Origin: a virus
Taxonomy: Duplodnaviria > Caudoviricetes
IMG/VR virus record: IMGVR_UViG_3300006752_000019
Location: 1-64,000 of that record
Reading direction: 5' to 3' (one strand)
Length of the DNA stretch: 64,000 bases
In this document: positions 8,475 through 35,965 of the stretch, in pieces
Layout of the letters: each line of letters begins with the position of its first letter
How positions within the stretch are numbered: position 1 is the first letter of the stretch
Notes under the pieces: generated by a model
Database searches by the model: none
Seen by the model: only the letters and a program-made list of their open reading frames with translations
What the model was told of the DNA's origin: nothing
Translations under genes and position numbers: made by a program

Positions 8475-8633
8475 TTATACATAAGTTTTCTCGTAAGTCA
8501 AGGAAAATTGCCATTTTCCACAATACCGAAGATTAAGAAAGAAAACATGAACTTTTGCTGTCCATTTGCGTTTATGTGCTTTAACAACACAGGGTGAGCC
8601 TTTGACTTTAATTACCCAACGCTTTGCTTTCAT
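8475..8633 (-). CDS. Small basic hypothetical protein, 52 aa
   Basis: Hand-translated MKAKRWVIKVKGSPC...; ATGA overlap with 8630..8836. Confidence 0.4.
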   Translation of the reverse strand: MKAKRWVIKVKGSPCVVKAHKRKWTAKVHVFFLNLRYCGKWQFSLTYEKTYV

Positions 8634-8836
8634 TTTTCTACCATTTGTTTTTTACGTTCTGACTCTTGAAGTCGGCGGCGTTCGGTTAGAGCTTCGACTC
8701 CATCTTGATCACAGGGCAAACATGCAATAGCACTATGAAGTGCGCCTAGCATATTATCATAACTAAGGTCATGCTCTTCGCCAACCATAAGCCAGCCACT
8801 GACATATTTCTCAAAGTCTTCTACTGTAATTTTCAT
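8630..8836 (-). CDS. Hypothetical protein
   Basis: ORF track. Confidence 0.6.
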   Translation of the reverse strand: MKITVEDFEKYVSGWLMVGEEHDLSYDNMLGALHSAIACLPCDQDGVEALTERRRLQESERKKQMVEK

Positions 8837-8844
8837 TTTATATT

Positions 8845-9342
8845 TTAAGAGCGTTTTCTTCTGAGAAGAAGTAGCATCCCAATGCCTCCGAGAAGCATCG
8901 TGCTTGGTTCTGGAATCGCATATGCATTCAATACACGCAAGCGCAATCCGTTGTTGCCCATATATTTTACAATATCCACGTTAAACTGTTGGCTATTGTT
9001 GTGATGCGCTGTAGCAGTCACTGTAAGAATGTTGCTCTGTTGAATATTTTGAAGATCAGCCAACTCTAGCTCGTATGGATATATTACCTTGTTGTCAAAG
9101 AACCAATCTTTTAGCGAAAGACTTTGAAGCTCAACTCTGTCTCCGAATCCTTGCATACGAAAGAAGTCTCCGTTTGTGAATTGAACCATCTCTGTATCAT
9201 TGTTGAATGCCACATCGGGCTGATTGGCCAGCAAGTCATTGCCAACGATGTTGACATTGGTAGTGTTAGAAATGTTGCTGATGGTGGTTGCGCCAGAGGC
9301 GAGGCTTGCGGTCGCAAGCAGACTTAATATGGTGTTTTTCAT
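8845..9342 (-). CDS. PEP-CTERM sorting-domain surface protein 1
   Basis: Signal peptide MKNTILSLLATASLASGA; C-terminus IPEPSTMLLGGIGMLLLLRRKRS. Confidence 0.9.
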   Translation of the reverse strand: MKNTILSLLATASLASGATTISNISNTTNVNIVGNDLLANQPDVAFNNDTEMVQFTNGDFFRMQGFGDRVELQSLSLKDWFFDNKVIYPYELELADLQNIQQSNILTVTATAHHNNSQQFNVDIVKYMGNNGLRLRVLNAYAIPEPSTMLLGGIGMLLLLRRKRS

Positions 9343-9356
9343 TTTTTATATTTAAA

Positions 9357-10046
9357 TTAACGCTTTCTTCGAAGAAGGAGTAGTGTGCCGATACCTCCAA
9401 GCAGCATGGCACTTGGTTCGGGAATGCTGTTTGCAGCCAAGTCCACATGAAAAGCTCTGTCAGTTCCAGTGTATGCGTTAATGGTTGATGCGCCATCAGC
9501 GAAACTATAACGATAGCCGCCAGCATAAACATCTGATCGGTTGTAGTTTGTATATGGAATACCATTTTTCCAAGAACCTGCTCCTGTCATTTCCAAGTCG
9601 ATACCATACATTGTATTGGCATCAAGCAAGTCAAATGGGTATTGAGTGTCAAACCCTACTGTCATCCAATCTCCTTGTGACCAAGTTGCTCCTGAAATAC
9701 TAATACCTCTTTGCATGTAGATCGTGTTGACATTGATGTTGTCAGGATCAATCTCTACAAGACGAAGATTAAACGTAAAGTTTTGTGTTTTTGGAGAACC
9801 GTCACTATTAAATTGTGACGAGCTATTCAATTGAAAAGAAACAGAGTTAACGGTATAACCGCTGGCATCGTTACCTGTGGTAAATGACTGCCCGATATTC
9901 AGGGTGTCAGCATAAAATTTGTCGTTACGATCATATACAGAATTGAAAATATCATCGTTGTTTACGTCAGGAGCGGCTGACTGAAAGGTAACTGCGCCAG
10001 AGGCGAAACCTGTGATTGCAAGTAGGGTTAGGATTGTATTTTTCAT
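9357..10046 (-). CDS. PEP-CTERM sorting-domain surface protein 2
   Basis: Signal peptide MKNTILTLLAITGFASGA; C-terminus IPEPSAMLLGGIGTLLLLRRKR. Confidence 0.9.
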   Translation of the reverse strand: MKNTILTLLAITGFASGAVTFQSAAPDVNNDDIFNSVYDRNDKFYADTLNIGQSFTTGNDASGYTVNSVSFQLNSSSQFNSDGSPKTQNFTFNLRLVEIDPDNINVNTIYMQRGISISGATWSQGDWMTVGFDTQYPFDLLDANTMYGIDLEMTGAGSWKNGIPYTNYNRSDVYAGGYRYSFADGASTINAYTGTDRAFHVDLAANSIPEPSAMLLGGIGTLLLLRRKR

Positions 10047-10360
10047 CTTATATTAACTTCTGTAGTAGGTTTAGGGTTAATTATCTGTTGTTCTCTAATG
10101 AACTTCAGCAATTCTTGTGGTATGAGTTTTTTGTATATATCTTCGTCTACTTTGAGTCTATAGATTACACATGCATCACACAGTTTGTCGGGTGATTTTC
10201 TGCATACTCTATATTCTACGAACTTTTGAGTGTTTTCGCAAGTTTTTTCTTTGCAGGTTTTGCAAATTTTTACTATACCAATTCTTTCAACGTAGTAAGT
10301 TTCTGCTGATGCTTGTGAGCAGAATATCAGCGCGGCTATTGCGAGTAAAGCTTTTTTCAT
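10043..10360 (-). CDS. Secreted Cys-rich protein
   Basis: Signal peptide ending SQASA; two CxxC plus two single Cys in the mature part. Confidence 0.65.
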   Translation of the reverse strand: MKKALLAIAALIFCSQASAETYYVERIGIVKICKTCKEKTCENTQKFVEYRVCRKSPDKLCDACVIYRLKVDEDIYKKLIPQELLKFIREQQIINPKPTTEVNIR

Positions 10361-10611
10361 GATTGGTAAAAGGTAATGTCTCCGTTTTCTTCTATCTTTT
10401 TATCTTCGTAAGGAGCAACCTTGCGGCGATAAAATTCTTGTTGAATGCCTTGAAGTGCGCCCATTACATCGTTGCAGGTTTGGTAGTTCAAGCCATTGGT
10501 TTCAACGTATTCCTCAATAAACAAATGAATCTGATAATTCAATTGACCTGCGGTTACTGGAGTGCAACCTTCAGCAATTGATAATCTTTCGTGTTCTGGA
10601 ATGTATGGCAT
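10357..10611 (-). CDS. Conserved small phage protein (DUF6899-like)
   Basis: MPYI...GQLNY.I...MGAL.G...EFYRRKVAPYEDKKI.ENGD, recognised as a widespread phage family. Confidence 0.7.
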   Translation of the reverse strand: MPYIPEHERLSIAEGCTPVTAGQLNYQIHLFIEEYVETNGLNYQTCNDVMGALQGIQQEFYRRKVAPYEDKKIEENGDITFYQS

Positions 10612-10648
10612 ATTATTATGTTAATGAATTTTTGTCTTTTTGTCAAGC

Positions 10649-11971: not shown

Positions 11972-12760
11972 ATGCCACAACAAAACCCAAATATATCACA
12001 AAAGTCCACAGGGGATACCCTGACTGCCGCAGAATTTAATATTTTGGTGAATACTGTTAGCGGTAACGCTACAGATGCACAAAATCGTTTTGTTGATGCG
12101 GTCGGTGGTTATGAATTCACCGCAGCATTCTCTGATAGGCTCAATGGACAAGCAGGAGCAAACGATGTAGGTGAATTTGTCCAATACACCCAAGCAATGT
12201 CTAATTCAGGACAATGGATGCGTTTTGGTTTTTCTAGTGCCTCTCAAGCTGCTAACGATGTGCCTTATTGGACTAATCCTGCGCCAGCAGATGCTTCTGG
12301 AATAGGGTTGTTTGGTGGTGCATATATGCCAGAGGGTGTTTCTAGTATGTTTGACTTTGACTTTTCTCAGGCTTCATATACTGATGCTATCAATACTGGT
12401 AGTTTCCAATATACAGAGGCTTCGGGGTCTTATGATTTTTCCCAGTGTAAAGCAGGAGATTTAGCTCTTATAAGATTTGACTTTAATGTTATACCTCAAT
12501 TTGCTAATACAACTCTAGAGGTAGGTTTGATATGGCAAACAAGGGATACTGAAGGAAATCCTACATTTACATTTCCGCTGACTACCCAACCTATATTTTT
12601 TGGAGAAGGAACGGTAGGCAGCACTTATTTGAATAGACCAATTATATCTGCTTATTTTGCATCTAATGAAGATGTAAATGCTGTTGCTTTACCTGCTATA
12701 CGAGCTAATAATCAGATTCAGGTCGCTCCCCTTACAACTCTAGCAACTATTCAACGATAA
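11972..12760 (+). CDS. Probable virion structural protein
   Basis: N-terminal KSTGDTLTAAEFN.LV motif typical of fibre/baseplate N-termini; beta-rich; GTGTAA upstream. Confidence 0.6.
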   Translation: MPQQNPNISQKSTGDTLTAAEFNILVNTVSGNATDAQNRFVDAVGGYEFTAAFSDRLNGQAGANDVGEFVQYTQAMSNSGQWMRFGFSSASQAANDVPYWTNPAPADASGIGLFGGAYMPEGVSSMFDFDFSQASYTDAINTGSFQYTEASGSYDFSQCKAGDLALIRFDFNVIPQFANTTLEVGLIWQTRDTEGNPTFTFPLTTQPIFFGEGTVGSTYLNRPIISAYFASNEDVNAVALPAIRANNQIQVAPLTTLATIQR

Positions 12761-14334
12761 TGGCAATACAAGTAATTCGCAATGACGCTGGAAACTGCGT
12801 CAACTTTTTAGGAAGTTCTAATCCCGTTTATTGGAACGCATGTCTCAGCGCAGAAGTAGATAGCACTTATTCTAATCGAATAAATGTTATCAATGATATA
12901 CGCACAATAATTGAAGGAGAGAATGTATACGAGTTCTTTCAGGTTCCGTATAATGACTTTGCTCAAGCAGATGGCACGGCTTTTTCATCGGCTACAGAAG
13001 CTGCTACTTACATTACAGCACAATGCAATGTAGCCAGTAATACTGGTTCTTTTGTTTTGTCTGCTACAGATAGTCTGGACTTCTCGATAGACAATACTAG
13101 CACCACAATATTGCTCGCCAATGGAGATGCTTATGCGGTTAATTCTATTCAAGCTGTAGCAAACGATGATAACCATATAAATATCGTTAAACATACCTCT
13201 GGAACAGTTTTATACAAGGATCTAAGAGTAGCTAATGCGAATATCAATGGAGCTACTGTAACTCAGGTCTTGGCAACAGCGGTAAATGAACTTAACAGCT
13301 TGTTTACCAACACAGCCTCTGTCTCTGGAGCTGTTCCGTCAATTACATCTAATACAACGATTAATCTCACTGAAGGGGATACTCTAAATTACGAACTCAC
13401 TGCCACAAATGGAGTGGCATACGAGTGGTCGGGCTTGCCTAGCGGCGTAACCACTGTTGATGGGAATATACGCAAACTAATCGGTGGATCATCTCTTGCT
13501 GTTGGGTCTTATTCAATAATCGCTAAAGCAATCAACTACTATGGCCAAGATTCTGAAACTATCACATTGAACGTGTCTGCTCCTCCTTATTCCAATACCA
13601 AAAGTATTGAATTTGAGAGTCAAGATTATCTAGGTGCTAATGCAGCCCTTCTGGACAGTGTTTTGGGACGTTCTGGAAATGGAGCTGGAAGTGGAGATGC
13701 GTGGACACTTCATATCTGGTATAAGCCCGATAACTTTACAGGAGGTCAGACTATGTTTTACTTCGGAGATGCAGATACCACTAATAGTGGACACTTAGAA
13801 CTCCGAACAACAACCACTGGAAACTTGAGATTTACATATGGCTCTAATAACAATTATGTCAGGAGAACCACTAATAATCAACCACTGACTACAGGGACTT
13901 GGCATAATATTATTATTACATATGACGGTGGCACTACTGGAGCGTCTTCTGCTGATGTTTCAGACTATTATAGTCGCTTTAATATTTATATTGATGGAAG
14001 TGCTGCCAGCCTAACAAATAGTCATGGTAACTACGGTTGGTCTGGTCAGATTGACGGAGAAAACCTTCGTGTAGGCCGCTATGCAAGTGGCAACTATATC
14101 AATGGCGGTCGCGTGGACGAGATTGCTATATGGGACTCAGATCAAACATCTAATATATCTTTGATCTATAACTCAGGAACTACACATGACTTGTCTCAAT
14201 TATCCGCTGGCCCTGCTCATTGGTGGCGCATGGGTGACGGAGATACATATTCCAATATACAAGACAATGTAGGGAGTGCTGTTTTCGTCATGTATAATAT
14301 GACCGCAGCTAACATCGTTACAGATGCCCCTTAA
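12760..14334 (+). CDS. Probable virion adhesin with Ig-like and LamG/ConA-like domains
   Basis: Ig-like segment (SGLPSGVT..GSYSI...A.N..G) and LamG motifs (WHNIIITYD, IYIDG, GRVDEIAIWD, HWWRM). Confidence 0.7.
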   Translation: MAIQVIRNDAGNCVNFLGSSNPVYWNACLSAEVDSTYSNRINVINDIRTIIEGENVYEFFQVPYNDFAQADGTAFSSATEAATYITAQCNVASNTGSFVLSATDSLDFSIDNTSTTILLANGDAYAVNSIQAVANDDNHINIVKHTSGTVLYKDLRVANANINGATVTQVLATAVNELNSLFTNTASVSGAVPSITSNTTINLTEGDTLNYELTATNGVAYEWSGLPSGVTTVDGNIRKLIGGSSLAVGSYSIIAKAINYYGQDSETITLNVSAPPYSNTKSIEFESQDYLGANAALLDSVLGRSGNGAGSGDAWTLHIWYKPDNFTGGQTMFYFGDADTTNSGHLELRTTTTGNLRFTYGSNNNYVRRTTNNQPLTTGTWHNIIITYDGGTTGASSADVSDYYSRFNIYIDGSAASLTNSHGNYGWSGQIDGENLRVGRYASGNYINGGRVDEIAIWDSDQTSNISLIYNSGTTHDLSQLSAGPAHWWRMGDGDTYSNIQDNVGSAVFVMYNMTAANIVTDAP

Positions 14335-14335
14335 T

Positions 14336-15172
14336 TTAAGAGTGTAAAGCAATACTAAAGTCGGCATTAACAGAACCGTTATTGCCATTAGCATTAACAA
14401 CATTTATCAAAACATCTGTTTTTGGTGGTAAAATAAAAGGATTTACTAGTGTTTGAACGTGAGAATTTTCTGTTGTAATCGAAGTTACTTCTTTTACTCT
14501 AAACACCTTTCCGTATTCTCTTGTTTTCAAATGAAGAGTGTATCCGATACTAGAAGAGCTTTGAGTATTTTGCGCCGAAGCTTCGTATTGCAGTAGATAG
14601 CCTGTTGTGTTTTCTGGTATTGTGTAAACAGCCATCAAGGTTTGGTTGTTCGATCCTAGTATTTTTGCATAGGAAAGGCTGTCGTCCCCATTCGCATGAA
14701 TATTAATATCTCCTGCAAAATCAGTATTGTCGTTATTGAATGACCTGAAGATTCTAGACCAAGTTCCATCCACGTTTACGTCAGTTAGTCCATTTAAGCT
14801 ACCTGTCCAGCTAACCTCGTTAAAGTTTTCATCTAAACCTTGAATAATGATTTCTTGAGAATCTCCGCTATCATCTGATTTGACTTGAATGCCCGTTCCA
14901 ATATCAGGCGGGAAAACATATTCTGTAGATCCATCCCAAATCGTTTCTGGAGAAGCAACGCTAACACCATTGCTTATATTTGGATTTGACCCAAATTTGA
15001 AAATTCTATCGCTAGCCTTTGCAGATACGCTATCAGAGTAAGACCCTATATCGCCAACCTCCATTGGTCGCCAATAACCACTTGCAGAATCCCAAATGTA
15101 ATTAAATGGTATATTGTGGTTTCTATTAGGAGAAACTCCAAAAGCGTCAGTGAATGTTGGTTGATTGTTCAT
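14336..15172 (-). CDS. Probable virion-associated protein
   Basis: Beta-rich; KFG.NP....ETIW motif; GTGTAA upstream. Confidence 0.55.
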   Translation of the reverse strand: MNNQPTFTDAFGVSPNRNHNIPFNYIWDSASGYWRPMEVGDIGSYSDSVSAKASDRIFKFGSNPNISNGVSVASPETIWDGSTEYVFPPDIGTGIQVKSDDSGDSQEIIIQGLDENFNEVSWTGSLNGLTDVNVDGTWSRIFRSFNNDNTDFAGDINIHANGDDSLSYAKILGSNNQTLMAVYTIPENTTGYLLQYEASAQNTQSSSSIGYTLHLKTREYGKVFRVKEVTSITTENSHVQTLVNPFILPPKTDVLINVVNANGNNGSVNADFSIALHS

Positions 15173-31054: not shown

Positions 31055-33417
31055 GTTGTTATATTACGTTGCTTTTTATCAAAAGTCAAGAGCTTTTCGA
31101 GGAAAATTTGCTTTTCTCCCTTCAAAATGGCTGGGGCGAGGCGTTTTTTGACCTCTTTTTCAAAATGGTCATTCAATGACTGTATTTTATTGTCCTCTTC
31201 GGCAATATTGTCCACGAAGTTTTTAATGAATTTAAAATCAAAAACCAACTCGACTCCGCTCATTTTGAAGTTTTTGTTCATCTGGTGAAGTCGATTCCAA
31301 AGAACACGGCGCAAATCTCTCTTATTGAGTTCTCCAAGGAAAATATTGCTAGTAAAATACTTTGAGAGCGCTGGAGAGACTAATGATGTTGCCTCACCAC
31401 TATTTCCGTTAAAACCCATAGACTTCTCGCTGGTTACATCACTTGTCAGGAAGAATTTACAGTTTGAGAAATCAGCAATTTCTCCAGATGGCATCTGAAG
31501 CCTTCCATCTTTGAAGATCTCAGAGAATAGAGTGTATGTATTAGGATTGACTTTATGGAAGTCGTCAATAATGATTACGCTATTAGGGTGGATCAAGACT
31601 TTCTCGCAAAGAGAAGTGTTATTTAGTCTTTCTGGAATGATCTTGTATTGTGCGTGTGCATCTGAGAAGTGAACGCCATTAAATGAAATAACATTCGCGC
31701 CCTCAATATCAAGGCATTCTTTTAGAAGCTTAGAAAACATACTTTTGCCGCTAAACTTCTCGCCATTCAAGCAGAACACGGCCTGAGAACCCTCTGAATC
31801 GTCAAATCCTAGATTTGAGAGCCTGATGTTTTCGTGCAGGTTTCTAATCTGTGCGTTGTTACCAACAAAGTGCTTAGAGAGATTGTCGAAGAAATTCTTT
31901 AGAGTTTGATCTTTGTGTAGGGGGTTTTCTTTTGTATCAAAAAATGATTTGAGTTGCTTGAGTGTTACAATTGCGGGTTTAGTATCTCTTGAAGAAACCC
32001 AATCGGTAAACTGAGACTCAAACTCGGAAAAAAGCTTATCTGATTCTTTTACTGTCTCGTCAAGCACTTGATCCTTGAGTTTCTGCAAGTCTTCGCTAAT
32101 GCTCCAGAACTTAACTTTAGCTTGAGCGCCGCAATGATCAATTACGTCTACTGCTTTGTCTGGATAGCATTTGTTGGGCATGAACCGTTCGCAGTAATCC
32201 AAAACATTATCTAGAAATTCTTTTGAGTAGGTTACATGATGAAACTCTTCATAAAATTCTACGATAGATGGAACAATTTTTTCCATTTGGAATTTAGAAG
32301 GTTCTCTTACGGCTACACGCTCAAAGCGGCGATCCAATGCGCTGTCTTTTTTGATTGTGTTGGTATACTCGTTAATGGTGGTTGCGCCAATACAACTAAT
32401 TGTGCCTCGCGCCAATTCTGGTTTAAGCATATTAGAAGCTTCCAGAGAGTTTTCTGAACTACCACCAGCACCAACTAAAGTATGAACCTCGTCAATAAAT
32501 AGAATCAAGTTCTCATGCTTCTTGGCTTCATTAACAAAGTTTTCCAAGCGTTCTTCAAATTGACCACGATACTGTGTGCCAGCAACCATGTTCGACAAAC
32601 TCAAAGAATAAATTACTTTATTAGCTAGTAGCTCTGGAGACTTTCCTTCTACAATGCTTGAGGCTAGTCCTTCTACAATCGAGGTTTTGCCTGTTCCTGC
32701 GGGGCCAACCAAAATGGCGTTAGGCTTTTTCTTTCTGCATAGGATGGTTGCCAGTTCTGCAATTTTTCCGTCAAAATCAATCACCTTGTCGAATTTGCCT
32801 TCAGCGGCTTTAATATTAAGGTTTTCAGCGAACTGAGAAAGGATTTCGTTCTCAGCAAACATATCCAGAAACTCTGCCGTGGGTTCTGTGGATTCTGAGG
32901 ATTCAAAGAGTTCTGGCACACCGCCATTACGGGGTTCAAATTCATTTTGCTCCTCAAATTCTTCGTCTCGCAAATAACAAGCAACCTTATCAATTAGCTT
33001 ATCGGCAAATTCTGTATAATCGCCGTCTTCGTAAAATACTTCTTTAAAGACGGGAGGTGCAAATTCTGGAGTAAGAAGATTGATAAAGATTGCTTCGGGG
33101 GCAACATAATCAAGCTCAAATACTTCAAGAGAGATTTCTTCGCAGCATTCTAGGAATCTTTCAAGCTTAAAGGTGAAGTGGATGTTTTCCCTGTATTCGT
33201 ATTTTCTCTTTTTTTCAACGCGCTTGATGCTCTTTGATAGAAGTGTTGCAAGAACTTCTTTGTTGTTAATGATTGTCAAGCACCCCAACCCTAAATTAGA
33301 AAGAAAAACTGTGACAAATAAATCAATGTCAACGCTTTTTAGTTTAAGGTCTTGCGCGGCGCGTTTGCATTTTTCAAACACACCTTGTGTTTCTGGCAGG
33401 TATTTATCGTGTTTCAT
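31051..33417 (-). CDS. clpA: ClpA/ClpC-like AAA+ chaperone (Clp protease ATP-binding subunit)
   Basis: D1: GPAGTGKT, AGTQYRGQFE, FIDEVH, LKPELARG, IGATT..EY, ALDRRF. Degenerate D2. No ClpB M-domain. Confidence 0.8.
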   Translation of the reverse strand: MKHDKYLPETQGVFEKCKRAAQDLKLKSVDIDLFVTVFLSNLGLGCLTIINNKEVLATLLSKSIKRVEKKRKYEYRENIHFTFKLERFLECCEEISLEVFELDYVAPEAIFINLLTPEFAPPVFKEVFYEDGDYTEFADKLIDKVACYLRDEEFEEQNEFEPRNGGVPELFESSESTEPTAEFLDMFAENEILSQFAENLNIKAAEGKFDKVIDFDGKIAELATILCRKKKPNAILVGPAGTGKTSIVEGLASSIVEGKSPELLANKVIYSLSLSNMVAGTQYRGQFEERLENFVNEAKKHENLILFIDEVHTLVGAGGSSENSLEASNMLKPELARGTISCIGATTINEYTNTIKKDSALDRRFERVAVREPSKFQMEKIVPSIVEFYEEFHHVTYSKEFLDNVLDYCERFMPNKCYPDKAVDVIDHCGAQAKVKFWSISEDLQKLKDQVLDETVKESDKLFSEFESQFTDWVSSRDTKPAIVTLKQLKSFFDTKENPLHKDQTLKNFFDNLSKHFVGNNAQIRNLHENIRLSNLGFDDSEGSQAVFCLNGEKFSGKSMFSKLLKECLDIEGANVISFNGVHFSDAHAQYKIIPERLNNTSLCEKVLIHPNSVIIIDDFHKVNPNTYTLFSEIFKDGRLQMPSGEIADFSNCKFFLTSDVTSEKSMGFNGNSGEATSLVSPALSKYFTSNIFLGELNKRDLRRVLWNRLHQMNKNFKMSGVELVFDFKFIKNFVDNIAEEDNKIQSLNDHFEKEVKKRLAPAILKGEKQIFLEKLLTFDKKQRNITT

Positions 33418-35965
33418 GTTTTTTGAAGTCACTCAGCTTCATAAGAACAGAGGAGTTGATAACTTTGACGCTTTCTGCGAAAGAGCTATCGCTATCGCTC
33501 TTTGAACCAAAGATAACTACTATGTCTTCCTTTTTGACTGTATTGCGTTCCAAGAAATCTGTAAGTTTAGCACTTCTAGCGTTATCCATAAAGATGAACT
33601 TGTGGTTGGCTGAGTTATCATTACCAAAGATCATCATATACTTATTACCATTTCTTGAAGTCCTTGTAAAGACATCTTTTACTTGTAATACAGATTTAAA
33701 GTTACAGCCCTCGGAAAGATCAGAAACTTCTTTTAGGTCTTTGAGCATATTGTATTCATTATCAAAACAATCTTTTAGTTTGTAAGAATAGCTATAGCCC
33801 AGCAAAGAGTTTTCATACCACCAGTATGTAAACTTGTGATGCTTCTTGTTTTCATTATAGATGCCGCGATATTCAGAAAACTTTTTCTTAAATGTTTCGA
33901 ATCGACTTGTCTTCATGATTGGGCGATTATCATCGCCAAGAGTTTGTTTTTCTACCACTTCTGCAATAGAATCAAGAAGATCAAAGTTAAACCTCTCGCC
34001 AATCTTTTCAAAGTTGCGTTTCTCGCGATCTGTGAGCAGATTGAATGCTTGTGCTTCTAAGACTAGACGAATGCGGTTCTCAGTGTTACTATCCATTGTG
34101 CCAGCCTGAATCAGAGCGGCGAGAACAGAGATGTTGATACCACACTCCTTAGCTGCAACGAAGGCGTGATATTTATTATCAAATGTATTACCGCGAAACT
34201 TAACCAAGCTCTCAAGAGACTTCATAGAGATTCCTTTGATGCTGTTGAGTCCATAGCGAATATTGTCGCCCTCGATCTTGAAGTTTAAATCAGATTTAAA
34301 TAAATCAGGTGGCAGTAACTTGATGCCGAAATCACAAAGCTCTTGATTTACAGATGAAATTGTGAGAAGGGGGTCTGGTTCGAACTCTGCTGCCTCCAGA
34401 ACGCTCAAGAAAAACTCTTGAGGGTGTTTGTATTTGAGATACACTGTCTTTGCCGCCAGAGTCGCGTAAGCGAAGCTGTGAGACTTGTTGAAGGAGTAGT
34501 TAGCCGCAGCATCAAGGGCAGTCCAGAAGTAATCTGCAACAGATTCTTCCATGCCTTTTTCTTGAGCAGCATTGTAAATCTTTTCTTTCCAAGGTTGCAT
34601 TTTGTCAACCATTTTTTTACCCACGATGCGGCGAACATCATCGGCATCCTGAAGTGAGAAACCGAAGACTTGAGAAATACACTGCATGAGTGTTTCCTGA
34701 TACAAGAATACGTTCTTGCTTTCACGCAGTAGTTCATCCATCACGGGGTGAACACCAAGTTCGCTTGGTGCGGTTTTCTGAGTGATATATTCATTAACGA
34801 ATTGCAAGCTTGATGGTCGCGCCAAAGCCACAACGTCAGAAAGCTCTGCTAGGTTCATTGGTTTTACATCACGACAAACTTGATAGTTTGTGTCAGCAGA
34901 AATTTGAAACAGACCCATCGGGTGATTGAAGTCTTGTAGCACACGATAGATTTTATTATCGTTTGGGTCGATATCTTCAAGTCTCTCTCCAATCTTCTGA
35001 CATGTCTTGTGGGCGATAGTCAGGGTGCGAAGACCAAGAATATCAAACTTAACCATCAAATCAGCAACATCATGCATATTGTAGCCTGTTACAAGATCGC
35101 CATCCTTACTACGTTGAAGAGGGACAACATTGGTAATGTCTTGGCTACAAATTGCAATGCCTGATGGGTGGACACCTGTATTCTTAATTAGACCTTCGAT
35201 AATCAGCGCGTTCTTAATTGTGCGTTTATGCTTCTTAGTCCACTGCTCAAACTTTTCGTCTTCTTCGATTGCTTTGCTAAGAGGAAGAACGATGCCGTGT
35301 GCTTTAGGGATTAGATCACTTACGCTCTTTGCATCATCTTCAGATGCTTCATCAAAATATTTAGTGGCTTCGCGAATGCAAAGCTTAGAACTGAAAGTAT
35401 TAAAGGTAAGAATTTTTGCGGTTCTACCTGCGTGAGTTTTTTCAATGTATTCAATAACCTTGCCACGCTTCTCGTAAGAGATATCGTTATCAATATCAGG
35501 CAACACGCTACCAACAAGAAACTCTTTGCCATGTTTGTCTGTAACCTTTCGCGCACGACTCTTGGATACGAATCGTTCGAAGAAAAGTCCATGAGGGATT
35601 GGGTCAATGTCTGTAACACCAAGAAGATACAGAACCAATGATCCTGCCGCACTACCGCGACCACCGCCAACTGGAATATCATTATCGTGACAGAAGTTAA
35701 TTACATCCCAATTCAAAAGAATATAATCAATAAAGCCAAGTTCGCTCAAAGTTTCAAGTTCAAACTTGACGCGATCAATATAGTCCTGATTCTTTTCAAG
35801 GCCACGCTTGAGCATACCTTGATAGCAAAGCTTGCGAACGATTTCATAGTTTGAGCTGCCTTCTTTTAGTTCTAGCTCAGATAAAGTTTTTGCGTCAACA
35901 GGAGTGTTAGGAAGTTCGACTCCTTTCGGCTCTGCGTCATCGTATGGTTGGAAGTTTTTAAACAT
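33404..35965 (-). CDS. dnaE: DNA polymerase III alpha-type (family C) core lacking most of the PHP domain
   Basis: GRGSAAGSLV, FERF, PDIDND, HPSG, KFDILGL, Y.FNKSH, IRYGL..IKG, C-terminal OB fold. Confidence 0.93.
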   Translation of the reverse strand: MFKNFQPYDDAEPKGVELPNTPVDAKTLSELELKEGSSNYEIVRKLCYQGMLKRGLEKNQDYIDRVKFELETLSELGFIDYILLNWDVINFCHDNDIPVGGGRGSAAGSLVLYLLGVTDIDPIPHGLFFERFVSKSRARKVTDKHGKEFLVGSVLPDIDNDISYEKRGKVIEYIEKTHAGRTAKILTFNTFSSKLCIREATKYFDEASEDDAKSVSDLIPKAHGIVLPLSKAIEEDEKFEQWTKKHKRTIKNALIIEGLIKNTGVHPSGIAICSQDITNVVPLQRSKDGDLVTGYNMHDVADLMVKFDILGLRTLTIAHKTCQKIGERLEDIDPNDNKIYRVLQDFNHPMGLFQISADTNYQVCRDVKPMNLAELSDVVALARPSSLQFVNEYITQKTAPSELGVHPVMDELLRESKNVFLYQETLMQCISQVFGFSLQDADDVRRIVGKKMVDKMQPWKEKIYNAAQEKGMEESVADYFWTALDAAANYSFNKSHSFAYATLAAKTVYLKYKHPQEFFLSVLEAAEFEPDPLLTISSVNQELCDFGIKLLPPDLFKSDLNFKIEGDNIRYGLNSIKGISMKSLESLVKFRGNTFDNKYHAFVAAKECGINISVLAALIQAGTMDSNTENRIRLVLEAQAFNLLTDREKRNFEKIGERFNFDLLDSIAEVVEKQTLGDDNRPIMKTSRFETFKKKFSEYRGIYNENKKHHKFTYWWYENSLLGYSYSYKLKDCFDNEYNMLKDLKEVSDLSEGCNFKSVLQVKDVFTRTSRNGNKYMMIFGNDNSANHKFIFMDNARSAKLTDFLERNTVKKEDIVVIFGSKSDSDSSFAESVKVINSSVLMKLSDFKKHETR

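What the first reader, a model, noticed from the sequence alone, without database searches (positions are those of the whole stretch)
8845..10046. Phage-encoded tandem PEP-CTERM surface proteins: probable hijack of the host exosortase
Two adjacent genes share an N-terminal signal peptide (MKNTIL..LA....ASGA) and a PEP-CTERM tail (IPEPS.MLLGGIG.LLLLRRKR) but carry unrelated passenger domains. This looks like a modular cassette. PEP-CTERM tails are established substrates of exosortases in Gram-negative, often EPS-producing bacteria, and this LLGG.G..LLRR tail style is typical of Verrucomicrobiota. No exosortase is in the window. The inference is that the phage displays its own proteins on the infected cell envelope using host machinery, for superinfection exclusion, receptor masking or changed adhesion. 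The phage glycosyltransferases might decorate them.
Basis: partly seen in the sequence, partly recalled or inferred. Interest (0 to 1): 0.82.

Follow-up and report, generated by a model that had tools for sequence, protein, structure and literature searches.

The report
Phage genes with host-matched PEP-CTERM tags
An uncultured tailed phage carries two adjacent genes for secreted proteins that end in the PEP-CTERM sorting tag in the form typical of Verrucomicrobiales bacteria. The phage probably sends its own proteins to the infected cell's surface through the host's exosortase, which I did not find described for phages in the papers searched.

Summary
Observation confirmed. Two minus-strand genes, 8845-9342 (165 aa, "PepS") and 9357-10046 (229 aa, "PepL"), share only a signal peptide (14/21 identical) and a PEP-CTERM tail (22/27 identical). 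Their middle domains are unrelated.

- **Tag:** PepS passes PF07589 and TIGR02595. PepL misses PF07589 by 0.8 bit, but 32 of 35 aligned family members hit it.
- **Context:** the window is phage DNA (DnaE polymerase, helicase, RNR, tRNAs). GC is uniform, and the pair recurs on 12-13 contigs, so it is not an assembly chimera.
- **Host:** the tail style occurs at 102 loci among 185,579 species genomes. 101 are Verrucomicrobiota, and five genomes carrying this tail style all encode exosortase. The window does not.
- **PepL:** a lectin-like beta-sandwich from a cellular PEP-CTERM family found in Luteolibacter.
- **PepS:** a family found only in phages, in at least three phage backbones. Its passenger is 52-62% conserved, but its tail matches PepL rather than its own homologues.
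- **Selection:** 12 synonymous against 2 non-synonymous codon differences in the tail show the tag is maintained.

Sorting by a host exosortase is the best explanation but is inferred. The biological role is unknown, and decoration by phage glycosyltransferases has no support. This scan has reported phage PEP-CTERM genes before on other DNA. I found no paper describing them.

The parts
9357..10046 (-). PepL: 229-aa secreted PEP-CTERM protein with a lectin-like beta-sandwich passenger (residues ~19-206)
   Evidence: ORF. PF07589 19.9 bits. 212 relatives at E<=1e-3, mostly with signal peptide plus passenger plus PEP-CTERM. 32/35 family members hit PF07589 and 5/35 hit DUF4082 weakly. AlphaFold pLDDT 90.8. 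VIA Z 12.4-10.2 to a PBCV-1 capsid protein domain, a phi812 baseplate protein, the Cwp84 lectin-like domain, the Bxb1 tail tip and PHR domains, then many CBMs.
8845..9342 (-). PepS: 165-aa secreted PEP-CTERM protein with a small beta-rich passenger (residues ~37-142) from a family found only in phage and metagenome DNA
   Evidence: ORF. PF07589 25.3 bits and TIGR02595 17.1 bits. Homologues at 45-58% identity, nearly all with signal peptide and PEP tail. 9 IMG/VR loci and none confirmed in 185,579 species genomes. Model pLDDT 80 with no fold match.
9993..10046 (-). PepL signal peptide (residues 1-18, ends ASGA)
   Evidence: Read from the sequence. 14/21 identical to the PepS N-terminus. Of the first 20 codons, 8 are identical, 6 differ synonymously and 6 non-synonymously.
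9289..9342 (-). PepS signal peptide (residues 1-18, ends ASGA)
   Evidence: As for PepL. The homologues of PepS in other phages have different signal peptides and lack the 10-aa Asn/Ser/Thr-rich stretch that follows.
9360..9425 (-). PepL PEP-CTERM tag (IPEPS, short hydrophobic helix with LLGGIG, then RRKR at the C-terminus)
   Evidence: The exact style PEPxxMLLGGIG occurs once in 185,579 species genomes, at the C-terminus of a 227-aa protein in a Verrucomicrobiaceae MAG.
8848..8916 (-). PepS PEP-CTERM tag (IPEPS, LLGGIG helix, RRKRS)
   Evidence: Of 22 tail codons compared with PepL, 8 are identical, 12 differ synonymously and 2 non-synonymously. 16/18 residues after PEP match PepL, against 11-32% for the tails of PepS homologues.
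10043..10360 (-). Upstream 105-aa secreted Cys-rich protein; its stop overlaps the PepL start (ATGA)
   Evidence: ORF with a signal-peptide-like N-terminus. No Pfam, NCBIfam or PHROG hit. The overlap ties PepL to the phage gene string.
10357..10611 (-). First gene of the probable transcription unit (DUF6899, 84 aa)
   Evidence: PF21840 at 81.4 bits. A promoter-like site lies just upstream.
10618..10646 (-). Sigma-70-like promoter candidate (TTGACA-17-TAACAT) ahead of the 10611 start
   Evidence: 10 of 12 matches. The number of such sites in the region (9) is not above shuffles (7.2 +/- 2.3), so this is weak evidence.
8630..8836 (-). Downstream 68-aa gene, probably the last of the unit
   Evidence: ORF with no family hit. 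The next strong promoter-like site is at 8501-8474.

Best explanation
The two genes encode phage-made cargo for the host's exosortase. They lie in a minus-strand gene string (about 10611 to 8630) among nucleotide-metabolism genes of an ~87-kb tailed phage, and are made during infection. Proposed steps:

1. The signal peptide sends each protein through Sec.
2. The C-terminal helix and its RRKR cluster hold it in the inner membrane with the PEP motif at the periplasmic face.
3. The exosortase of a Verrucomicrobiales host recognises PEP plus the LLGGxG helix, cleaves it, and passes the passenger on to the outer envelope or exopolysaccharide layer.

PepL is a lectin-like beta-sandwich recruited from the host clade's own exosortase-cargo family. 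PepS is a small beta domain that moves between unrelated phages and takes on a tag that fits each host. My committed guess for the role is that they bind or cover surface glycans or receptors of the infected cell. That would hinder adsorption of further phages, or loss of progeny on debris, as the lipoproteins Llp and Cor do through the Lol pathway.

Shown: the gene anatomy, the tag, its clade specificity, selection on it, and the phage context. Inferred: export, exosortase processing, final location and biological role.
For: - **Tag present:** PF07589 and TIGR02595 hits. PEP is invariant or nearly so in both families: P144 and E145 invariant and P146 at 90% or more in the phage-only PepS family, and P209, E210 and P211 in the PepL family. 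A plain membrane anchor would not need this motif.
- **Selection on the tag:** 12 synonymous against 2 non-synonymous codon differences in 22 tail codons between the two genes.
- **Tag tracks the genome, not the passenger:** 16/18 tail identity between PepS and PepL, against 11-32% between PepS and homologues whose passengers are 52-62% identical.
- **Tag is clade-specific:** PEPxxxLLGGxGxLLLLRR occurs at 102 loci, 101 of them Verrucomicrobiota. 62 of 64 strict matches end within 8 residues of a stop.
- **Candidate hosts have the enzyme:** all five Verrucomicrobiales genomes tested encode exosortase above the PF09721 cut-off. The window has none.
- **PepL family is cellular:** two full-length copies in a complete Luteolibacter MAG (E 5e-68, 37% identity). 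In Haloferula rosea, PepL-like domains at 126-142 kb lie between exosortase genes at 107 kb and 160 kb on the same contig.
- **Glycan-binding-type fold for PepL:**
- **Phage context:**. Recurrence on 12-13 contigs and in 9 IMG/VR contigs of at least three backbones, including T7-like ones.
Against: - No experiment shows export, cleavage or surface display.
- The host is inferred only from the tag style and the PepL family. No CRISPR or tRNA evidence was available, and the one other attempt (GDP-mannose dehydratase) returned a single Flavobacterium hit at 60%.
- The candidate host genus inspected has a much higher GC than the phage's 35-42% (my reading of the ORFs).
- PepL falls 0.8 bit under the Pfam cut-off, and TIGR02595 did not list it.
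- About 23 kb of the phage contig lie outside the window and I could not read them, so a phage exosortase there is not excluded. Earlier notes list only structural genes in that part.
- The receptor-masking role has no direct support. PepS and PepL show no sequence similarity to the phage's tail-fibre-like proteins.
Confidence: 0.6

Rival explanations
1. The proteins are plain C-terminally anchored periplasmic proteins. After Sec export they stay in the inner membrane by the tail helix and act there, for example by blocking DNA entry of superinfecting phages as T4 Imm and Sp or P22 SieA do. No exosortase processing is involved.
For: The topology fits: a signal peptide plus a C-terminal helix plus a basic cluster. 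The genes sit among early or middle genes. No exosortase is in the window. One homologue (L005) reads PEI instead of PEP.
Against: PEP is invariant or nearly so across two unrelated passenger families. The helix copies the clade-specific LLGGxG style found at the C-termini of Verrucomicrobiota proteins. That specificity serves no purpose for a generic anchor. PepL descends from a cellular family that carries the tag.
Confidence: 0.2
2. The proteins are decoy substrates. Made in bulk, their tags saturate or jam the host exosortase. This stops the host from displaying its own PEP-CTERM proteins or building its matrix, which could ease release or spread of progeny.
For: There are two tandem genes with near-identical, host-mimicking tags under selection. 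The host clade has many PEP-CTERM proteins (one search lists dozens of candidates per genome).
Against: The passengers are well conserved and fold with high confidence (52-62% identity in the PepS family; pLDDT 80 and 91). A mere decoy would not need that. There is no evidence on expression level.
Confidence: 0.08
3. The proteins end up on or help build the virion, for example as envelope-located assembly or adsorption aids, given that the PepL fold resembles domains of phage baseplate, tail-tip and capsid-decoration proteins.
For: The top fold matches of PepL are virion proteins: a PBCV-1 capsid protein at Z 12.4, phi812 baseplate at 11.8 and Bxb1 tail tip at 10.6. In the window and in L005 and L007, the PepS gene lies 2-4 kb from homologous tail-fibre-like genes.
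Against: Tailed-phage virions assemble in the cytoplasm, while these proteins have cleavable signal peptides and membrane tails. The same fold is common in CBMs and surface lectins. The closest sequence relatives of PepL are cellular PEP-CTERM proteins. In T7-like contigs the PepS homologue sits next to the integrase and RNA polymerase genes, not the virion genes.
Confidence: 0.05
4. The segment is an artefact or dead cargo: a host fragment misassembled into a phage contig, or recently captured host genes with no function for the phage.
For: PepL has cellular relatives. The window's own contig was not found in IMG/VR.
Against: GC in the region is 0.41, against 0.35-0.42 across the window. There is a start/stop overlap with the neighbouring phage gene. 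The identical pair is on 12-13 contigs from several sources. The PepS family is found only in viral or metagenome DNA. Synonymous divergence with a conserved protein sequence argues for function.
Confidence: 0.03

Closest known systems
Bacterial PEP-CTERM / exosortase (EpsH, XrtA) sorting system and its cargo (Haft et al. 2006, BMC Biol 4:29, from my own knowledge; PF07589, TIGR02595, PF09721). One example is PepA of Zoogloea resiniphila (Gao et al. 2018, seen only as an entry in the reference list of PMC12642866).
   Same: Signal peptide, variable passenger, then PEP motif, hydrophobic helix and basic cluster at the very C-terminus. The tag style is that of one bacterial clade, and genomes carrying this tail style encode exosortase.
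   Different: The genes are carried by a phage with no exosortase in the 64 kb read. One of the two passengers (PepS) was found only in phage and metagenome DNA. The curated PEP-CTERM subfamilies (NF038120, NF038126, NF038129 and others) score far below their cut-offs.
Cellular PepL-type PEP-CTERM proteins of Verrucomicrobiota (uncatalogued; weak DUF4082 PF13313 matches), for example two genes in Luteolibacter MAG CP121322
   Same: Same length and architecture, and shared motifs (GQ[ST]FTTG, YGxD, GIPY, FHxD). 37% identity over the passenger; profile E 5e-68.
   Different: The phage copy is AT-rich, sits in a phage gene string, and is paired with an unrelated second cargo that shares its signal peptide and tag. 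The family is sporadic in cells: 6 of 201 sampled Verrucomicrobiota genomes at E<=1e-15.
Phage-encoded envelope proteins that use a host sorting route for superinfection exclusion or receptor masking: lipoproteins Llp of T5 and Cor of phi80/T1/N15 through the Lol pathway (own knowledge)
   Same: Small phage-encoded secreted proteins that rely on a host envelope-sorting signal. In three phages the PepS gene lies a few kb from tail-fibre-like genes, as llp lies beside the receptor-binding protein gene of T5.
   Different: There is no lipobox Cys, so these are not lipoproteins. The sorting route would be exosortase. No functional evidence exists for exclusion. This is a works-like comparison only.
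Lectin-like, PHR and carbohydrate-binding-module beta-sandwiches (Cwp84 lectin-like domain 4ci7, PHR domains 3gbw and 3no8, CBM32 and CBM35, phage tail-tip and baseplate domains)
   Same: The PepL passenger model aligns over 133-156 residues at Z 9.3-12.4 and rmsd 3.2-3.7.
   Different: Sequence identity is 8-15% and no ligand site could be assigned. A shared fold does not show function.

Membership tests
PEP-CTERM sorting-signal proteins (PF07589 / TIGR02595) | PEP motif, then a hydrophobic helix, then a basic cluster, at the extreme C-terminus | tested here: met
   Both proteins end IPEPS-x-MLLGGIG-x-LLLLRRKR, with 0 or 1 residue before the stop.
PEP-CTERM sorting-signal proteins (PF07589 / TIGR02595) | HMM score over the curated cut-off | tested here: inconclusive
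   PepS scores PF07589 25.3 (cut-off 20.7) and TIGR02595 17.1 (cut-off 16): met. PepL scores PF07589 19.9, which is 0.8 bit short, and TIGR02595 did not list it. However, its tail is 22/27 identical to the PepS tail, and 32 of 35 of its relatives hit PF07589.
PEP-CTERM sorting-signal proteins (PF07589 / TIGR02595) | N-terminal Sec signal peptide | tested here: met
   MKNTIL, a hydrophobic run, then ASGA in both proteins, with small residues at -3 and -1 and no Cys. Judged by eye, as no predictor was available.
PEP-CTERM sorting-signal proteins (PF07589 / TIGR02595) | An exosortase encoded in the same organism | not testable with these tools
   None in the window. The host is unknown. Five Verrucomicrobiales genomes with the same tail style all have PF09721 over the cut-off. 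The last ~23 kb of the phage contig could not be fetched.
PEP-CTERM sorting-signal proteins (PF07589 / TIGR02595) | Exosortase-dependent removal of the tag and transfer out of the inner membrane | not testable with these tools
   This needs expression in wild-type and exosortase-knockout cells.
Curated PEP-CTERM subfamilies (NF038120 QFxxD, NF038126 FxDxF, NF038129, NF038125 THxN, PepA NF033554, XDP1 NF041927) | Whole-protein score over the NCBIfam cut-off | tested here: not met
   The best score is 21.1 bits against a cut-off of 80. All matches cover little more than the tail.
PepL-type PEP-CTERM family of Verrucomicrobiota (uncatalogued, DUF4082-like) | Full-length similarity of the passenger, including the conserved motifs | tested here: met
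   212 relatives at E<=1e-3 and 63 at E<=1e-10. Alignment A3. Luteolibacter copies at 229 and 187 bits against the family profile, one of them 37% identical to PepL.
Phage superinfection-exclusion lipoproteins (Llp, Cor) | Lipobox with an invariant Cys at the signal-peptide cleavage site | tested here: not met
   Neither signal peptide contains a Cys. The comparison is functional only.

The most novel reading that the evidence does not exclude
The PEP-CTERM tag, together with the signal peptide, is a swappable, host-matched address module in phages. One phage-specific cargo family (PepS) travels between unrelated phage backbones (a T7-like backbone, an ~87-kb DnaE/RNR backbone and a third type) and takes on the tag dialect of each new host's exosortase. 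If so, the tag predicts the host of uncultured phages, and PepS is an exosortase-delivered surface protein that masks the phage's receptor.
Probability: 0.35. Interest if true: 0.75.

Novelty: new variant of a known kind. Interest (0 to 1): 0.6.

Why it matters
- **A tractable substrate.** Exosortase sorting is widespread in environmental Gram-negative bacteria but poorly understood. The acceptor and the final location of the cargo are still unknown. Small phage-borne cargo whose tags are under clear selection would give compact, natural substrates for studying it.
- **A new route for phages.** It would add a third host envelope-sorting route exploited by phages, beside Sec/Tat and the lipoprotein pathway.
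- **A host marker.** The tag dialect is nearly exclusive to one bacterial order here. It therefore gives a host assignment (Verrucomicrobiales) for an uncultured ~87-kb phage of a phylum with very few known phages. This may be a general host-prediction marker.

Tried and rejected
- **Close cultured relatives:** none. Megablast of 25 kb found nothing, and the DnaE polymerase is at most 33% identical to any record.
- **Window's contig:** not in IMG/VR by an exact 42-mer, and not in JGI metagenome contigs by an exact 49-mer or by PepL peptides. The last ~23 kb of the 86,971-bp contig stayed unread.
- **PepL relatives in IMG/VR:** none found by pattern scan.
- **PepS fold:** no match. Foldseek against PDB gave a best E of 0.13, VIA wide a best Z of 4.9, and BFVD a best E of 0.044.
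- **ESM Atlas:** only PEP-CTERM clusters, mostly Verrucomicrobiota, at 0.92 with few shared features. This is a lead only.
- **Host by GDP-mannose dehydratase:** one Flavobacterium hit at 60%, uninformative.
- **Tail style of the T7-like PepS homologues (PEPETxxLIAGL):** one Mariniphaga hit, so their host clade is unresolved.
- **Ser/Thr-Gly glycosylation signature:** not enriched.
- **Similarity to the phage's tail-fibre-like proteins:** none.
- **PHROGs:** no family for either protein.
- **Literature:** four searches combining PEP-CTERM or exosortase with phage, prophage or viral terms, or Verrucomicrobia and Luteolibacter with phage. None found a description of phage-encoded exosortase cargo. 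One 2026 preprint mentions a PEP-CTERM domain in a Dehalococcoides mobile element.

Full report
**What is there.** On the minus strand lie two ORFs 14 nt apart: 9357-10046 (229 aa, here PepL) and 8845-9342 (165 aa, here PepS). BLASTP between them aligns only residues 1-21 (14/21 identical) and the last 27 residues (22/27 identical). The middles do not align. Both begin MKNTIL, then a hydrophobic run, then ASGA, which reads as a Sec signal peptide with small residues at -3 and -1 and no lipobox Cys. Both end IPEPS-x-MLLGGIG-x-LLLLRRKR at the C-terminus. PF07589 scores 25.3 bits for PepS (cut-off 20.7) and 19.9 for PepL. TIGR02595 scores 17.1 (cut-off 16) for PepS only. The curated PEP-CTERM subfamilies match the tail alone, far below their cut-offs.

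**The DNA is phage DNA and the pair belongs to it.**
- The window encodes a DnaE-like polymerase, a DnaB-like helicase, ribonucleotide reductase, a Lon-like protease, RecA-like and RuvB-like proteins, UvdE, dCMP deaminase, a nucleoside deoxyribosyltransferase, a GDP-mannose dehydratase, glycosyltransferases and four tRNAs.
- No cultured phage is close: no megablast hit, and polymerase identity is at most 33%.
- Earlier notes of this scan place capsid, portal, tube and tape-measure genes in the overlapping second window. I did not check these.
- The stop of the upstream 105-aa secreted Cys-rich gene overlaps the PepL start. The string DUF6899, 105-aa gene, PepL, PepS, 68-aa gene runs from a promoter-like site at 10646-10618 to about 8630. 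The promoter evidence is weak.
- GC is 0.41 here, against 0.35-0.42 across the window.
- The two proteins, at 97-100% identity, are on 12 and 13 contigs from JGI, ENA, Logan and MetaClust. The longest contig for both is 86,971 bp.

**The tag points to Verrucomicrobiales.**
- The exact style PEPxxMLLGGIG occurs once in one genome each of 185,579 prokaryote species, at the C-terminus of a 227-aa signal-peptide protein of a Verrucomicrobiaceae MAG.
- The looser PEPxxxLLGGxGxLLLLRR occurs at 102 loci. Of these, 101 are Verrucomicrobiota (Luteolibacter, Haloferula, Akkermansiaceae, Roseibacillus, Verrucomicrobiaceae) and one is a Pirellulaceae MAG.
- In 62 of 64 strict matches the stop follows within 8 residues, so these are real C-terminal tags.
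- All five such genomes that I searched encode exosortase above the PF09721 cut-off.
- The window has no exosortase. tblastn and phmmer with two of those exosortases gave E of 0.9 or worse, and no long polytopic ORF exists.
- The host assignment is an inference from the tag dialect plus the next point. No spacer evidence was available, and one other attempt was uninformative.

**The two passengers have different histories.**
- PepL has 212 relatives at E<=1e-3 among 1.84 billion representative proteins. Most are 220-250 aa with the same plan, and 32 of 35 aligned members hit PF07589. Five hit DUF4082 weakly.
- A complete Luteolibacter MAG has two full-length PepL copies (E 5e-68; 37% identity to PepL). 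Six of 201 sampled Verrucomicrobiota genomes hit at E<=1e-15. In Haloferula rosea, PepL-like domains lie between two exosortase genes on one contig.
- The PepL model (pLDDT 90.8) is a lectin-like beta-sandwich. It scores Z 12.4 to a PBCV-1 capsid protein domain, 11.8 to a phi812 baseplate protein, 11.1 to the Cwp84 lectin-like domain, 10.6 to the Bxb1 tail tip and 9-10 to PHR domains, followed by many carbohydrate-binding modules.
- PepS has relatives only in metagenome and viral DNA: five protein clusters at 45-58% identity and nine IMG/VR loci. None was confirmed in the species genomes.
- These PepS contigs are of at least three kinds. Some are T7-like (RNA polymerase, gp2.5-type SSB, primase-helicase, DNA polymerase), and in L006 the gene follows the integrase directly. 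L005 and L007 share tail-fibre-like genes with the window. L001 and L002 form a third type.
- The PepS model (pLDDT 80) is a small beta domain with no fold match in PDB or BFVD.

**The tag is a selected, genome-matched module.**
- In the 22 tail codons, the two genes have 8 identical codons, 12 synonymous differences and 2 non-synonymous differences. The signal-peptide codons give 8, 6 and 6. This is not a recent copy; the peptide is being kept.
- PepS is 52-62% identical to its homologues in the passenger but only 11-32% in the tail after PEP. It matches PepL at 16 of 18 tail positions.
- PEP itself is invariant or nearly so in both families.
- The simplest reading is that both proteins must fit the same recognition partner, the host's exosortase, and that PepS acquired the local tag and signal peptide.

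**Mechanism and limits.** I commit to Sec export, retention by the tail helix, cleavage at PEP by the host exosortase, and delivery to the outer envelope or exopolysaccharide (confidence 0.6). The most likely role is binding or covering surface glycans or receptors. This is analogous to the lipoproteins Llp and Cor, which is a works-like comparison and not membership, since no lipobox is present.

Rivals are a plain inner-membrane anchor (0.2), an exosortase decoy (0.08), a virion-related role (0.05) and an artefact or dead cargo (0.03). None of the processing steps is shown. Decoration by phage glycosyltransferases has no support: the Ser/Thr-Gly signature is not enriched.

**Novelty.** Four literature searches found no description of phage-encoded exosortase cargo. 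This scan has noted the theme many times on other DNA, with several follow-ups reaching similar readings. New here are:
- the Verrucomicrobiales tag dialect, which serves as a host pointer;
- the pairing of a host-derived cargo with a phage-only cargo under one shared address module;
- the codon-level evidence for selection on the tag.

**Tool limits.** The rest of the contig could not be fetched.

Noticed in passing
window 10043-10360 (-): A 105-aa protein with a signal-peptide-like N-terminus and many cysteines (CxxCxxxxC and further Cys). It has no family hit. Its stop overlaps the PepL start, so a third secreted protein may be co-expressed with the pair.
   Followed up: partly
L006:1706-3220; also L004, L008, L009, L003: PepS homologues sit in T7-like marine phage contigs upstream of the single-subunit RNA polymerase gene. 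In L006 the gene follows a tyrosine integrase gene directly, which is a typical moron or lysogenic-conversion position.
   Followed up: partly
window 11972-15172; L005:1-5377; L007:1778-7631: A block of three genes is conserved between the window and two IMG/VR contigs: a 262-aa protein, a Laminin_G_3 protein of 524 aa here and 1057-1207 aa there, and a phrog_8198 protein. In all three it lies 2-4 kb from the PepS gene in divergent orientation. This is probably a tail-fibre or host-recognition module.
   Followed up: partly
window 9262-9291 (-), PepS residues ~18-27: The window's PepS has a 10-residue Asn/Ser/Thr-rich insert (with NxS/T-type sequons) right after the signal peptide. All its homologues lack this insert.
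   Followed up: no
G002 contig C69, 107-160 kb (Haloferula rosea; loci L114, L123): Several PepL-like domains, some in 1104-1123-aa proteins, lie between two exosortase genes on one contig. This looks like an exosortase cargo island.
   Followed up: no
L005:8121-8606: This PepS homologue reads PEI instead of PEP in its tag (IPEIAAFPLILGLL...RRKGR). It is either a natural variant of the motif or a decaying tag.
   Followed up: no
window 33404-35965 (-): The replicative polymerase is a DnaE-like Pol III alpha. Its best cultured relatives are Streptomyces phages at ~33% identity, so the phage backbone is far from anything cultured.
   Followed up: partly
window 8845-10046 upstream regions: Neither PEP-CTERM gene has a Shine-Dalgarno-like sequence before its ATG; the leaders are A/T-rich.
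   Followed up: no
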